Made by a program: the position numbers
Part shown: positions 18,401 to 21,400 of the stretch, in pieces
Position numbering within the stretch: the stretch's first letter is position 1
How the letters are laid out: each line of letters opens with the position of its first letter
Assembly (NCBI RefSeq): GCF_041248615.1
Contig: NZ_CP158426.1
DNA: 64,000 nt
Reading direction: 5' to 3' (one strand)
Source: Escherichia coli
Lineage (GTDB): Bacteria; Pseudomonadota; Gammaproteobacteria; Enterobacterales; Enterobacteriaceae

Positions 18401-21400
18401 GCTCATGGAGAAACCTGAAACGGCAATGAAAGCCATCACACACAATCTCGATCGTGAAATCTGGCGTGACTTGATGCAACGTTCCGGGATGCTTTCCTTA
18501 ATGGATGCACAGGCCCGTGAGACATGGTACCGGTCACTGGAGTACGATAATTTTCCGGAAATCAGCGAAGCGAACATCCTGAGCACATTTGAACAACTGC
18601 ACCAGAATAAGGATGAGGTGTTTGAGCGAGGGGTGATCAACGTCTTCAGAGGGCTGAACTGGAATTACAAAACCAATTGCCCCTGTAAATTTGGCAGTAA
18701 AATTATCGTCAACAATCTGGTGAGATGGGACCGGTGGGGATTTCATCTTATCACCGGACAACAGGCTGACCGACTCGCCGATCTGGAAAGAATGTTGCAC
18801 CTGTTCAGCGGTAAACCAATCCCCGACAATCGGGAAAACATCACTATTCGTCTGGATGAGCACATTCAGTCTGTTCAGGGTAAAGAGAGCTATGAAGATG
18901 AGATGTTCAGCATCAGATACTTTAAGAAGGGCTCCGCGCATATCACATTCAGAAAACCAGAACTGGTTGATCGGCTAAATGACATCATTGCAAAGCGTTA
19001 TCCGGGACAATTATCAGCCATCTGAGTCAGATGGAAAAAAGCTTACCTGACCCATTACCTGACCCAATTCAAAGGAAAAAGAAAAAGGGTTAGCTGGTTT
19101 ATTAGCTAACCCTTTGTTGTGTATGGTGGCCCCTGTTGGGTTTGAACCAACGACCAAGCGATTATGAGTCGCCTGCTCTAACCACTGAGCTAAGGGGCCA
19201 TGGTAGCGGATTATAAAGTAACTCCGTGTCGCAATCCAGCCATTACCGCGCGCCTGCTGTTTTTATAAACAATGTATTTTCAATCCGTTATACTTTTCCT
19301 GGTGATGTTAGAAAGGAGTAAATATGGTTGAGGATATTTTGGCCCCAGGGCTACGGGTCGTGTTTTGCGGTATCAACCCTGGGCTTTCATCCGCCGGAAC
19401 GGGTTTTCCCTTTGCTCATCCGGCAAATCGCTTCTGGAAGGTGATATATCAGGCCGGGTTTACCGACCGTCAGTTGAAGCCGCAGGAGGCACAGCATCTG
19501 CTGGATTATCGTTGTGGCGTCACCAAACTGGTAGACCGTCCAACGGTGCAAGCCAATGAAGTTTCAAAGCAAGAACTACACGCAGGCGGGCGTAAGCTGA
19601 TTGAAAAAATTGAAGATTATCAGCCGCAGGCGTTGGCGATTCTGGGCAAACAAGCATATGAACAGGGATTCAGCCAGCGCGGTGCACAGTGGGGGAAACA
19701 AACTCTCACCATTGGTTCGACGCAGATTTGGGTGCTGCCAAATCCCAGCGGTTTAAGTCGCGTTTCACTGGATAAACTGGTTGAAGCGTATCGCGAGCTG
19801 GACCAGGCGCTGGTAGTGCGTGGGCGATAAAAAACGCCACCGAAAAGGTGGCGTTTGTGCAGAGGGACTAGTGCCGGGTGCGGCGTAACGCCTCTACCGA
19901 TTAATCGTCCAGGAAGCTACGCAGCACTTCAGAACGGCTCGGGTGACGCAGTTTGCGCAGCGCCTTCGCTTCGATCTGACGGATACGTTCGCGGGTAACG
20001 TCGAACTGTTTACCCACTTCTTCCAGCGTGTGGTCGGTGTTCATATCGATACCGAAGCGCATACGCAGAACTTTCGCTTCACGCGCGGTCAGGCCAGCCA
20101 GCACGTCGTGCGTTGCCGCACGCAGGCTTTCGGTGGTCGCAGAATCCAGCGGCAGCTCGAGGGTGGTATCCTCGATGAAATCCCCCAGATGCGAATCTTC
20201 ATCATCACCGATCGGCGTTTCCATGGAGATTGGCTCTTTGGCGATCTTCAGCACTTTGCGGATCTTGTCTTCCGGCATCAGCATACGTTCAGCCAGTTCT
20301 TCCGGCGTCGGTTCACGGCCCATCTCTTGCAGCATCTGGCGAGAAATACGGTTGAGTTTGTTGATAGTCTCAATCATATGCACCGGAATACGGATGGTGC
20401 GCGCCTGATCCGCGATAGAACGGGTGATCGCCTGACGGATCCACCAGGTTGCGTAGGTGGAGAACTTGTAACCACGGCGGTATTCGAATTTATCAACCGC
20501 TTTCATCAGGCCGATGTTACCTTCCTGAATCAGGTCAAGGAACTGCAAGCCACGGTTGGTGTATTTCTTGGCGATAGAAATAACCAGACGTAAGTTCGCT
20601 TCAACCATCTCTTTCTTCGCACGGCGGGCTTTTGCTTCACCGATGGACATACGACGGTTGATATCTTTAACCTGCTCGATGGTCAGGCCGGTTTCTTCTT
20701 CAATCTGCTGCAGTTTCTGCAGGGCGCGATGCACTTCTTCAGAGACATCGTGCAGTTTTTCCGACCACGGCTTGTTCATTGCAATTGCCGCGTTGAACCA
20801 GGTATCGCTGGTTTCGTTGCCGGTAAACAGGGTAATGAAGTTTTTCTTCGGCATTTTGCACTGCTCAACGCAGAGCTTCATGATCAGACGTTCTTGCGTA
20901 CGAACGCGGTCCATCATGACGCGCATGCTGTTGACCAGGTAGTCAAACTGCTTCGGCACCAGGCGGAACTGTTTGAATACTTCAGACAGTTTCAGGATCT
21001 CTTCCTGAGCGGCAGCGTGACTGCGACCTTTCGCTTTGATGGTGTCACGCGTTACAACGTACTGAGCGCGCAGTTCCGCAAATTTTTCACGAGCCAGTTC
21101 CGGGTCGATGCTGTTGTCATCATCGGCGCTGTCGTCATCGCCATCTTCTTCGTCTTCATCTTCGTCATCGTCCAGATCTTCCTGGGAAAGCTCAGAACCG
21201 ACGTGAGTGGCGGTAGGTGCCAGATCTTCTTCTGCGTTCGGGTCAACAAAGCCGGTGATCAGATCGGACAGACGCGCTTCTTCTGCTTCAACACGATCGT
21301 ACTGTTCCAGCAGATAGGTGATCGCTTCCGGATATTCAGCAACGGAGCATTGAACCTGGTTGATCCCGTCTTCAATACGCTTAGCGATGTCAATTTCGCC

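What the first reader, a model, noticed from the sequence alone, without database searches (positions are those of the whole stretch)
19026..19123. tRNA-Ile keeps its own terminator; a 12-bp tandem repeat marks a possible island junction
A hairpin plus T-tract (19082-19115, minus strand) lies immediately 3' of the tRNA, so the island boundary is beyond the terminator and not inside the tRNA 3' end. TTACCTGACCCA is directly repeated at 19044-19055 and 19056-19067, a candidate junction or binding-site remnant. I found no direct repeat of the tRNA 3' end elsewhere in the window.
Basis: seen in the sequence. Interest (0 to 1): 0.35.

Follow-up and report, generated by a model that had tools for sequence, protein, structure and literature searches.

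The report
Island attachment-site arm beside tRNA-Ile
The hairpin and the 12-base tandem repeat next to this isoleucine tRNA gene are not host DNA or an insertion scar: they are one arm of the attachment site of a 48-kb mobile island that cut into the tRNA's anticodon region and rebuilt the gene's 3' half with its own copy and its own terminator, which is a well-known kind of arrangement.

Summary
The sequence features are real. A strong terminator hairpin sits at 19084-19115 (-), just 3' of tRNA-Ile(CAU) ileX (19124-19199, -).

The window is E. coli NRZ14408. A 48.4-kb island lies between nfeF and ileX, and its integrase end is 29 kb outside the window. At that end sit the native ileX terminator and a displaced 47-nt ileX 3' fragment, 99/100 identical to K-12. 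The copy in the window is only 75% identical to K-12.

So the crossover lies inside the tRNA, within the 20-bp identity block at 19151-19170 (anticodon stem-loop). The tRNA's 3' 47 nt, the terminator and the 12-mers are all island DNA.

The same 24-bp tandem recurs 46 bp upstream of the integrase ATG. In 11 relatives with 46-86% Int identity, a lineage-specific 12-bp tandem occupies both equivalent positions. Its sequence co-varies with the integrase's N-terminal arm-binding domain, not with the catalytic domain or AlpA.

Best reading: these are arm-type integrase binding sites of a classical heterobivalent tyrosine recombinase. This is a new member of a known kind, of low to moderate interest.

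The parts
1..19170 (.). Right-hand 19 kb of a 48.4-kb integrative island (record NZ_LT599825.1 770,754-819,170). The left 29 kb, including int, alpA and the displaced tRNA fragment, lies outside the window.
   Evidence: Record annotation shows nfeF, then int, then island genes through DUF4942, then tRNA-Ile and mug. K-12 has nfeF directly next to ileX.
18180..19025 (+). Last island gene, encoding a DUF4942 protein. It closes the conserved antirestriction/RadC/CbeA-CbtA module.
   Evidence: Pfam PF13708, E = 7.6e-69; annotation.
19043..19066 (+). Two direct 12-bp copies of TTACCTGACCCA. Proposed arm-type integrase binding sites of the tRNA-proximal att arm (P arm of attP, present in the integrated attR-type junction).
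   Evidence: An identical 24-mer lies at L004 30880-30903, 46 bp upstream of the int ATG. The 26 bp around it are invariant in 5 diverged right arms and the tandem is invariant in 21 int-proximal arms. A lineage-specific equivalent sits at the same positions in 11 relatives. The motif co-varies with the Int N-terminal domain.
19068..19083 (-). U-tract of the terminator (UUUUUCUUUUUCCUUUG on the RNA strand), which reads as A-tracts on the + strand.
19084..19115 (-). Island-borne intrinsic terminator hairpin for the rebuilt tRNA (12-bp stem, 8-nt loop).
   Evidence: It differs from the native K-12 ileX terminator, which is retained at the far junction. A hairpin occupies the same place in every relative, with different sequences.
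19124..19170 (-). 3' 47 nt of the tRNA (positions 30-76), supplied by the island. The T-arm is GTTGG/CCAAC rather than the native GCTGG/CCAGC.
   Evidence: 43/47 identical to K-12 ileX, whereas the displaced fragment at L004 30707-30753 is 47/47. The same island-type half is seen at ileY in strain 2015C-3107, while native K-12 ileY has the native T-arm.
19151..19170 (.). 20-bp identity block between the two island junctions (CGACCAAGCGATTATGAGTC, tRNA positions 30-49: anticodon stem-loop and variable loop). Strand exchange must have occurred within it.
19171..19199 (-). Native chromosomal 5' 29 nt of ileX.
   Evidence: Identical to K-12 ileX and contiguous with the mug upstream region.
19324..19830 (+). 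mug, the backbone flank.
   Evidence: Annotation; matched in 5,425 of 5,426 genomes.

Best explanation
Window 19026-19170 is the tRNA-proximal arm plus core of the attachment site of a 48.4-kb integrative island specific for tRNA-Ile2 (anticodon CAU).

How it arose. The island's tyrosine integrase is 438 aa, with an N-terminal Arm-DNA-binding domain and a C-terminal catalytic domain. It is encoded 48 kb away, next to nfeF. It recombined the island's attP with the anticodon stem-loop region of ileX. attP carries its own copy of tRNA positions 30-76, followed by its own terminator. Integration therefore rebuilt a chimeric but intact ileX: a native 5' 29 nt joined to an island 3' 47 nt, ending in the island's terminator. 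The native 47-nt fragment and native terminator were displaced to the other end of the island.

What the 12-mers do. The two TTACCTGACCCA copies at 19043-19066 and the identical pair 46 bp upstream of the int start codon are arm-type sites. The integrase's N-terminal domain would bind them while its catalytic domain binds the core. This folds the roughly 280-bp attP (or attL and attR during excision) into a recombination-competent intasome. Bending is probably assisted at a conserved IHF-consensus site on the int-proximal arm, and excision is probably assisted by the island's AlpA-family protein. The int-proximal pair probably also lets Int repress its own promoter, as in KplE1.

Shown: the geometry, the origin of each segment, the duplication of the motif on both arms, and its family-wide conservation of position together with co-variation of sequence.

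Inferred: binding by Int, the roles of IHF and AlpA, autoregulation, and current mobility.
For: Origin of the segments:
- Empty site in K-12: nfeF, terminator, ileX, mug.
- Occupied site here, with int at the nfeF side.
- The left junction holds the native terminator plus the 47-nt ileX fragment, 99/100 identical to K-12. The window copy is 78/104 identical.
- The island-type T-arm is also found at ileY when that site is occupied but not in native ileY.

The 12-mer:
- The exact 12-mer occurs only four times in 114 kb, as two tandem pairs at the two island ends.
- The right-arm spacer occurs in 441 and the left arm in 454 of 5,426 E. coli genomes.
- The integrase has Pfam Arm-DNA-bind_3, E = 1.3e-13.

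Relatives:
- In 21 relatives with 84-100% Int identity, the int-proximal tandem is invariant apart from the last base, while the flanks vary.
- In 11 elements with both ends captured (46-86% Int identity), a 12-bp tandem lies about 81/69 bp from the tRNA 3' end. Ten of them also have one about 70/58 bp from the int ATG (further upstream in two). The unit differs between lineages but matches between the two arms of each element.

Co-variation (Mantel tests):
- Motif distance against Int N-domain identity: rho = -0.58. The partial correlation controlling for the catalytic domain is -0.51. None of 5,000 permutations reached either value.
- The catalytic domain given the N-domain: +0.16, not significant.
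- Motif against N-domain controlling for AlpA: -0.58. AlpA controlling for N-domain: +0.15, not significant.

Accessory features and precedent:
- IHF consensus conserved in the close Enterobacterales relatives scanned (84-98% Int; 10 of 11 loci including E. coli), with variable N positions.
- AlpA is present in the island.
- In KplE1, IntS arm-type P' sites overlap the intS promoter between the argW fragment and the ATG (PMC2951348).
- The Islander principle describes a regenerated tDNA plus a displaced fragment, with an anticodon-centred attP class (PMC4383910).
Against: - No binding, excision or circular-intermediate data exist for this element.
- No contiguous attP junction was found in 5,426 E. 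coli genomes or in metagenome contigs.
- The Mantel tests use hand-phased motifs and phylogenetically related elements. The N-domain is also intrinsically more variable than the catalytic domain.
- Most relatives have a third, inverted copy of the motif downstream of the int-proximal pair. The E. coli and E. albertii lineage lacks it, so the site complement here may be reduced.
- AlpA is present in most elements, so an RDF contribution to recognition of these repeats is not excluded.
- The island carries IS elements and may be immobile.
Confidence: 0.8

Rival explanations
1. The 12-mers are binding sites for the island's recombination directionality factor (an AlpA/Xis-type protein) rather than for the integrase.
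For: - Tandem direct repeats spaced about one helical turn apart are typical of Xis/RDF sites (own knowledge of lambda X1/X2 and of the TorI sites in KplE1; PMC2951348).
- An AlpA-family gene is present in this island and in 18 of 25 relatives.
Against: - The repeats occur on both att arms, whereas RDF sites are usually confined to one arm.
- Motif sequence follows the Int N-domain and not AlpA. The partial correlation for AlpA is +0.15, not significant. Example: L048 and L050 have 65% identical AlpA but different motifs, while L047 and L048 have 40% identical AlpA but nearly the same motif.
- The complete small Aeromonas islands have the tandems on both arms and no detectable AlpA homolog.
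Confidence: 0.1
2. The tRNA and its terminator are untouched backbone. The island ends beyond the terminator, and the 12-bp tandem is a junction scar or duplication made at the insertion point.
For: Megablast against K-12 resumes at about 19076, just past the hairpin. No tRNA 3' repeat exists in the window.
Against: - The native terminator and the 47-nt tRNA fragment are found at the other island end, 99/100 identical to K-12.
- The window copy is 75% identical to K-12 and has a distinct T-arm.
- The same 24-mer lies upstream of int and in the same two positions in other species.
- The same right arm is found at a different locus, ileY.
Confidence: 0.01
3. The tandem is an operator for a transcription factor controlling int or island genes, or an iteron for a replicating excised form, unrelated to recombination.
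For: The int-proximal pair lies 46-70 bp upstream of the int ATG, where a promoter is expected. Many relatives add an inverted copy, giving an operator-like arrangement.
Against: - The second pair, in the window, is next to a tRNA terminator and a convergent gene end, not a promoter.
- The fixed distance to the tRNA core in all lineages and the co-variation with the Int arm-binding domain point to recombination.
- Autoregulation by Int at the same sites is compatible with the main explanation.
Confidence: 0.06
4. The tandem is a chance duplication (polymerase slippage) with no function.
For: It has only two copies and is short.
Against: - An identical pair lies 48 kb away at the equivalent position.
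- It is invariant in 21 int-proximal arms and 5 tRNA-proximal arms whose flanks diverge.
- About 0.004 such events are expected per window by chance (my arithmetic).
Confidence: 0.01

Closest known systems
Arm-type sites of bacteriophage lambda integrase (P1, P2, P'1-P'3)
   Same: - A heterobivalent tyrosine recombinase with an N-terminal arm-binding domain.
- Short repeated motifs unrelated to the core, on both arms of an attP of about 250-280 bp.
- Adjacent sites about one helical turn apart on the int-proximal arm.
- An IHF-consensus site between core and arm sites.
   Different: - The motif is a different 12-mer, TTACCTGACCCA.
- Here there are two direct copies on each arm. Relatives add one inverted copy on the int-proximal arm.
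- The core lies inside a tRNA anticodon stem-loop.
- A transcription terminator is embedded between the arm sites and the core.
- Binding is not demonstrated here.
KplE1 (CPS-53) prophage IntS/TorI module at argW (PMC2951348)
   Same: - An integrase with an arm-binding N-domain at a tRNA target.
- P' arm-type sites lie between the tRNA fragment and the int ATG, overlap the int promoter, and mediate autoregulation.
- A small RDF is encoded nearby.
   Different: - Only 19% protein identity to IntS.
- In KplE1 the int gene is co-oriented with and adjacent to the intact tRNA. Here int is adjacent to the displaced fragment and divergent from it.
- The target is tRNA-Ile2, not tRNA-Arg.
Islander-type tDNA islands with an anticodon-centred attP (class A; PMC4383910); probable relatives KpGI-5 at K. 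pneumoniae 'met56' (46-bp repeat, PMC3419637) and VPaI-1 at V. parahaemolyticus 'tRNA-Met' (45-bp repeat, PMC1464126)
   Same: - A regenerated tRNA at one end and a displaced 3' fragment of about 46-47 nt at the other.
- In VPaI-1 the integrase is at the end far from the intact tRNA.
- tRNA(CAU) genes are commonly labelled 'Met' by software (ARAGORN does so here).
   Different: I did not compare sequences of KpGI-5 or VPaI-1. The link rests on repeat length, target anticodon and the Vibrio homologs at about 52% identity. None of those papers, as far as I read them, describes arm-type sites.
CP4-57 and other CP4/P4-like cryptic islands of E. coli
   Same: The same distal cargo module is present (GTPase, Ag43, DUF932, antirestriction, RadC/JAB, CbeA-CbtA, DUF4942), with an AlpA-type regulator and an integrase carrying the Arm-DNA-bind_3 domain.
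   Different: - The integrase is only 23% identical to IntA.
- The target is the anticodon region of tRNA-Ile2 rather than the 3' end of ssrA.
- The orientation relative to the target gene is opposite.

Membership tests
tDNA-integrated genomic island (Islander criteria) | Intact, regenerated tRNA gene at one island end | tested here: met
   ARAGORN finds a tRNA at 19124-19199, annotated tRNA-Ile. Its composition is chimeric: native 5' part, island-type 3' part.
tDNA-integrated genomic island (Islander criteria) | Displaced fragment of the same tRNA, in the same orientation, at the other end | tested here: met
   The 47-nt fragment at L004 30707-30753 is 47/47 identical to K-12 ileX and is followed by the native terminator.
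tDNA-integrated genomic island (Islander criteria) | Tyrosine integrase gene inside the island, next to an att end | tested here: met
   int lies at L004 30950-32266, 197 bp from the fragment. Pfam assigns Phage_integrase and Arm-DNA-bind_3.
tDNA-integrated genomic island (Islander criteria) | Empty site in related genomes, with the flanks contiguous | tested here: met
   K-12 has nfeF, 53 bp, then ileX and mug. The arms are present in only about 8% of E. coli genomes.
Anticodon-centred (class A) attP | The boundary of the tRNA-identical segment, and hence the crossover, maps to the anticodon stem-loop | tested here: met
   The fragment begins at tRNA position 30. The identity block between the junctions covers positions 30-49. 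The exact cleavage positions are not determinable from sequence.
Arm-type binding sites of heterobivalent tyrosine integrases | The integrase has a dedicated N-terminal arm-DNA-binding domain | tested here: met
   PF13356 covers residues 5-97, E = 1.3e-13.
Arm-type binding sites of heterobivalent tyrosine integrases | A repeated motif, unrelated to the core, on both arms flanking the core | tested here: met
   Two copies at 19043-19066 and two at L004 30880-30903. There are no other exact copies in 114 kb.
Arm-type binding sites of heterobivalent tyrosine integrases | Sites conserved in position among relatives, with sequence tracking the integrase's arm-binding domain | tested here: met
   Searches show position. 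The Mantel partial correlations are -0.51 and -0.58, with none of 5,000 permutations reaching them.
Arm-type binding sites of heterobivalent tyrosine integrases | Physical binding by the Int N-domain, and a requirement for recombination | not testable with these tools
   This needs EMSA or footprinting and att-site mutagenesis.
Intrinsic (Rho-independent) terminator | A G+C-rich stem-loop immediately followed by a U-tract, downstream of the gene on the same strand | tested here: met
   12-bp stem, -18.9 kcal/mol, z = -4.3, tail UUUUUCUUUUU. Termination in vivo was not tested.
   The repeat lies 85-108 bp inside the island end. The same pair is present near the other end and in other species.
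RDF (Xis/AlpA/TorI) binding sites | Confined to one arm and specific to the element's RDF | tested here: not met
   The repeats are on both arms. There is no residual co-variation with AlpA. The Aeromonas elements lack AlpA.
CP4-57 IntA / KplE1 IntS integrase subfamilies | Close sequence relationship to the characterised integrase | tested here: not met
   23% identity to IntA and 19% to IntS, over the full length. The domain architecture is the same but the subfamily is distinct.

The most novel reading that the evidence does not exclude
Integrases of this tRNA-Ile2 family all use the same core, the anticodon stem-loop. They have diversified into several 12-mer 'arm codes', such as TTACCTGACCC, TTGTTTGACTA, TAACTACACCC, CAAGTACACT and TTAGATCACCC. 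Each code is matched to its own N-terminal domain. This recoding could make related islands recombinationally orthogonal, so that they can stack at one tRNA gene and still excise independently. The Salinivibrio locus L038 shows such stacking: a TTACCTGACCCA-type right arm abuts a TTGTTTGACTAA-type integrase. The family would then be a natural set of same-target, arm-programmable integrases.
Probability: 0.25. Interest if true: 0.45.

Novelty: new member of a known kind. Interest (0 to 1): 0.25.

Why it matters
- Annotation. The true island boundary is inside ileX, not beyond its terminator. The present-day ileX is a chimera whose 3' half and terminator are foreign. Any breakpoint called by naive alignment to K-12 (about 19076) would be about 75-95 bp off and would misassign the terminator to the backbone.
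- Biology. The island still has an intact integrase, an AlpA gene, both att junctions and both pairs of putative arm sites. It may therefore still be excisable. It carries a type I restriction-modification system, Ag43 and lactate and sugar utilisation genes.
- Method. The finding shows how a window that truncates an island hides the displaced tRNA fragment.
- Family level. The matched pairs of 12-mer and Int N-domain give a small, testable recognition code for a little-studied integrase subfamily.

Tried and rejected
- Inversion or recombination between ileX and ileY. I considered this because the same DUF4942-spacer-tRNA arrangement occurs at ileY in another strain. I rejected it because nfeF and the displaced ileX fragment lie at the other island end in the expected order.
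- The tRNA as island cargo, a complete extra gene. Rejected: the 5' 29 nt and the upstream region are contiguous backbone.
- Exact attP-junction pattern in metagenome contigs: 0 hits.
- A synthetic 344-nt attP query against 5,426 E. coli genomes: no place spans both arms, only the integrated junctions. Neither search says anything about excision.
- Sigma-70 promoter scan of the int upstream region: nothing found, so the proposed overlap of arm sites with the int promoter stays an inference from KplE1.
- PDB sequence search with the integrase: no hit.
- Literature search for the 12-mer: only an unrelated human primer.
- VSP-II of V. cholerae as a relative. Not adopted: its att sites are 14-16 bp and VC0516 (its last ORF, which I take from own knowledge to be its integrase) sits at the tRNA-Met end, judging by locus numbering (VC0516 / VC0516.1), which is a different arrangement.
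- The plasmid tRNA-Ile hit (H40) belongs to a phage-plasmid tRNA cluster and is unrelated.
- A degenerate third arm site in E. coli: none within 4 mismatches, apart from a motif-like stretch in the terminator stem (19102-19112, 2 mismatches). That stretch is not conserved in the Erwinia version and is probably chance.
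Full report
**1. What is in the sequence**

- The window is E. coli NRZ14408 chromosome NZ_LT599825.1, positions 800,001-864,000 (100% match).
- ARAGORN finds one tRNA, at 19124-19199 on the minus strand, with anticodon CAT. RefSeq calls it tRNA-Ile. It sits upstream of mug, as ileX does in K-12.
- TRF and an exact-pattern search place a perfect TTACCTGACCCA x2 at 19043-19066.
- A 12-bp stem-loop lies at 19084-19115 on the minus strand, followed by UUUUUCUUUUUCC. It is terminator-like: dG -18.9 kcal/mol, z = -4.3, and no shuffle folds as well.
- No second copy of the tRNA 3' end exists in the window.
- The observation therefore stands.

**2. Surroundings**

- From window position 1 to 19025 the annotation shows island cargo: lactate utilisation genes, ISKpn26, a type I restriction-modification system, a GTPase, Ag43, DUF932, an antirestriction protein, RadC/JAB, CbeA-CbtA, DUF5983, DUF957 and DUF4942.
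- Reading further left in the record, the backbone gene nfeF ends at 770,653. A tyrosine recombinase gene starts at 770,950.
- In K-12, nfeF is separated from ileX by only 53 bp.
- The island is therefore about 48.4 kb. Its integrase end lies 29 kb outside the window.

**3. Where the boundary really is**

The left junction reads, in order:
- the nfeF stop codon;
- the K-12-type terminator;
- 47 nt of ileX, corresponding to tRNA positions 30-76;
- unrelated island DNA.

This 100-nt stretch is 99/100 identical to K-12. The corresponding stretch in the window (19067-19170) is only 78/104 identical, and its tRNA part is 43/47 identical. The four tRNA differences are two changes in the T-loop plus a compensatory base-pair change in the T-stem (GCTGG/CCAGC to GTTGG/CCAAC).

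Native K-12 ileY also has the native T-arm. When ileY is occupied by the same island type in strain 2015C-3107, it carries the island-type T-arm, terminator and 12-mers.

It follows that:
- the tRNA's 3' 47 nt, the terminator and the 12-mers in the window are island (attP-derived) DNA;
- the native counterparts were displaced to the far end;
- strand exchange occurred inside the 20-bp block shared by both junctions, 19151-19170, which covers the anticodon stem-loop and variable loop.

This is the standard 'regenerated tDNA plus displaced fragment' arrangement, of the anticodon-centred attP class (PMC4383910).

The megablast breakpoint near 19076 against K-12 is misleading. The island-borne and native terminators share the flanks AAAAAGAAAAAGG and CCTTTG.

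**4. The 12-mer occurs at both ends**

- The identical 24-mer lies at L004 30880-30903, 46 bp upstream of the int ATG.
- In 114 kb there are only these four exact copies. Hits with up to 2 mismatches are at chance level.
- The 98-bp spacer with the repeat is present in 441 of 5,426 complete E. coli genomes. The int-proximal arm is present in 454. K-12 has neither.
- The repeat is therefore island DNA, not backbone and not a scar.

**5. Family-wide comparison**

The integrase has an N-terminal Arm-DNA-bind_3 domain and a catalytic domain. It is only 23% identical to CP4-57 IntA and 19% identical to KplE1 IntS.

Homologs with 35-98% identity occur across Enterobacterales, Aeromonas, Vibrionaceae, Colwellia, Psychromonas and others.

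In nearly all loci of 46% identity or more that I scanned:
- a tRNA-Ile(CAU) 3' fragment lies about 216 bp upstream of int, in the same divergent orientation;
- a 12-bp-period tandem lies about 70/58 bp upstream of the ATG (perfect or with 1 mismatch in about two-thirds, more degenerate in most others).

Among 21 arms with 84-100% Int identity, TTACCTGACCC[A/G] x2 is invariant while the flanks diverge.

In 11 elements small enough for both ends to be captured:
- a tandem 12-mer lies 81/69 (+/-2) bp from the 3' end of the intact tRNA, with a terminator hairpin between;
- in 10 of these 11 the unit matches the unit upstream of that element's int;
- the unit differs between lineages.

The eleventh, Rosenbergiella L051, has three tRNA-side copies but a truncated int upstream region with no matching repeat.

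Lineage-specific units:

| Unit | Lineage |
|---|---|
| TTACCTGACCC | Enterobacterales |
| TTACGTCACC / CTACATCACC | Pantoea and Erwinia group |
| CAAGTACACT | Aeromonas |
| TTAGATCACCC | V. hannami |
| TACTTGACTAA | Motilimonas and Colwellia |
| TATTTGACTA | V. zhanjiangensis |
| AACTACACCCA | Psychromonas |
| AACTAGACCC | a Colwellia MAG |
| ACTACAGT | another Colwellia |

Five diverged tRNA-proximal arms share 26 invariant columns that cover exactly the tandem. Their terminators are two different hairpins.

**6. Who binds it**

Mantel tests on 25 elements:
- 12-mer Hamming distance correlates with identity of Int residues 8-98, rho = -0.58.
- The partial correlation controlling for the catalytic domain is -0.51. 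None of 5,000 permutations reached either value.
- The catalytic domain has no residual correlation once the N-domain is controlled for (+0.16).

In the 18 elements with a recognisable AlpA:
- the motif follows the Int N-domain after controlling for AlpA (-0.58);
- it does not follow AlpA after controlling for the N-domain (+0.15).

The complete small Aeromonas islands keep both tandems but have no AlpA homolog.

These results favour arm-type sites recognised by the integrase N-domain. They are correlative. The motifs were phased by hand and the elements are related by descent.

**7. Accessory features**

- A perfect IHF consensus (WATCAANNNNTTR) lies at L004 30815-30827, between the core and the int-proximal pair. 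It is conserved, with variable N positions, in the close Enterobacterales relatives scanned (84-98% Int; 10 of 11 loci including E. coli). In total 11 of 35 loci have a hit, against 0.45 expected.
- The island encodes an AlpA-family protein.
- Most relatives have a third, inverted copy 10-15 bp downstream of the int-proximal pair. The E. coli and E. albertii lineage has replaced that segment and lacks it.

**8. Mechanism proposed**

- attP is about 280 bp. Its order is: 12-mer pair, terminator, tRNA positions 76-30 (core at the anticodon loop), IHF site, 12-mer pair, int.
- Int bridges the arm and core sites through its two domains and recombines with the ileX or ileY anticodon region.
- The island copy of the tRNA 3' half and terminator keeps the essential tRNA-Ile2 gene functional.
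- In the integrated state, the pair in the window belongs to the junction that carries the intact tRNA. The other pair overlaps the int regulatory region and may mediate autorepression, as shown for IntS in KplE1 (PMC2951348).
- Binding, the roles of IHF and AlpA, and present-day mobility are all inferred.

**9. Comparison with what is known**

- ileX is already listed as an insertion site for integrative elements and PAI modules in E. coli (PMC7067040, PMC5539235, PMC7545054).
- KpGI-5 at the K. pneumoniae 'met56' tRNA has a 46-bp repeat (PMC3419637).
- VPaI-1 at a V. parahaemolyticus 'tRNA-Met' has a 45-bp repeat, with its integrase at the end far from the tRNA (PMC1464126).
- Both look like the same target and geometry, but I did not compare their sequences.
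- The kind of feature is classical: a tDNA island with lambda-type arm sites. I found no description of this particular 12-mer.

**10. Verdict**

The features are real. The main interpretation is refuted and the 'binding site' alternative is supported. This is an ordinary att-site arm of a known type of element, resolved here in some detail, including a family-wide pairing of arm motif and N-terminal domain. It is a new member of a known kind. Interest is 0.25.

Noticed in passing
window 7539-7566 (inside hsdS, 6871-8064, minus strand): A second perfect 12-bp tandem, TAAGCTCAGCGG x2.3, encodes ...TALTAELTAEL... in the central region of the type I specificity subunit. This resembles the TAEL repeat of type IC HsdS proteins (EcoR124 family), where copy number sets the spacer length of the recognition sequence (own knowledge).
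   Followed up: partly
L038 (Salinivibrio sharmensis) 5873-6200: TTACCTGACCCA x2, a terminator and a tRNA-Ile2 3' fragment lie directly upstream of a family integrase (about 50% identity) whose own arm motif is TTGTTTGACTAA. It looks like two related islands with different arm motifs stacked at one tRNA gene. The exact E. coli-type 12-mer is thus also present in a Vibrionaceae genome.
   Followed up: partly
L004 30654-30706 (record 770,654-770,706, outside the window): The displaced native ileX terminator carries one substitution relative to K-12 (C to T in the stem), which creates a mismatch in the relic hairpin.
   Followed up: partly
L004 30815-30827 (outside the window): A perfect IHF consensus, AATCAATAAATTA, lies between the att core and the int-proximal 12-mer pair. 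It is conserved in the close (84-98% Int) Enterobacterales relatives, with variable N positions.
   Followed up: partly
L004 30904-30949, compared with L005-L020, L062 and L070: Relatives with about 86% Int identity have a third, inverted copy of the motif (GGGTCAGGTAAC) between the tandem and the int ATG. The E. coli and E. albertii lineage has an unrelated sequence there, which suggests a mosaic replacement of the int leader.
   Followed up: partly
window 19102-19112: The 3' arm of the terminator stem, TTAGCTAACCC, differs from the arm 11-mer at only two positions. The Erwinia version of the terminator shows no such resemblance, so this is probably chance.
   Followed up: partly
L003 12225-12400 (E. 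coli 2015C-3107, ileY locus): The same island type occupies ileY. The resulting chimeric tRNA has a U6-G67 wobble in the acceptor stem, because the island-supplied 3' half matches ileX rather than ileY.
   Followed up: partly
L088 2480-2620 (E. coli 1218KP): A DUF4942 gene, the 12-mer pair, an Erwinia-type terminator and a native-type tRNA 3' fragment sit next to parM and plasmid-stability genes and IS elements. This is a relic or rearranged island end in a different context.
   Followed up: no
L039, L043, L047, L048, L050, L067 (islands of 3-6 kb): Small relatives in Motilimonas, Vibrio, Psychromonas and Colwellia carry only int, alpA, a YagK/inovirus-Gp2-like gene, sometimes a primase, and a few unknown genes. 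Their gene content resembles phage satellites that use the same tRNA-Ile2 site.
   Followed up: no
window 2505-3485 and L001 425-4761: The island is heavily decayed in places. ISKpn26 lies next to a truncated GntP permease pseudogene, and further left (outside the window) an IS3-family transposase pseudogene appears split around a group II intron (ltrA), next to an IS1414 fragment.
   Followed up: no
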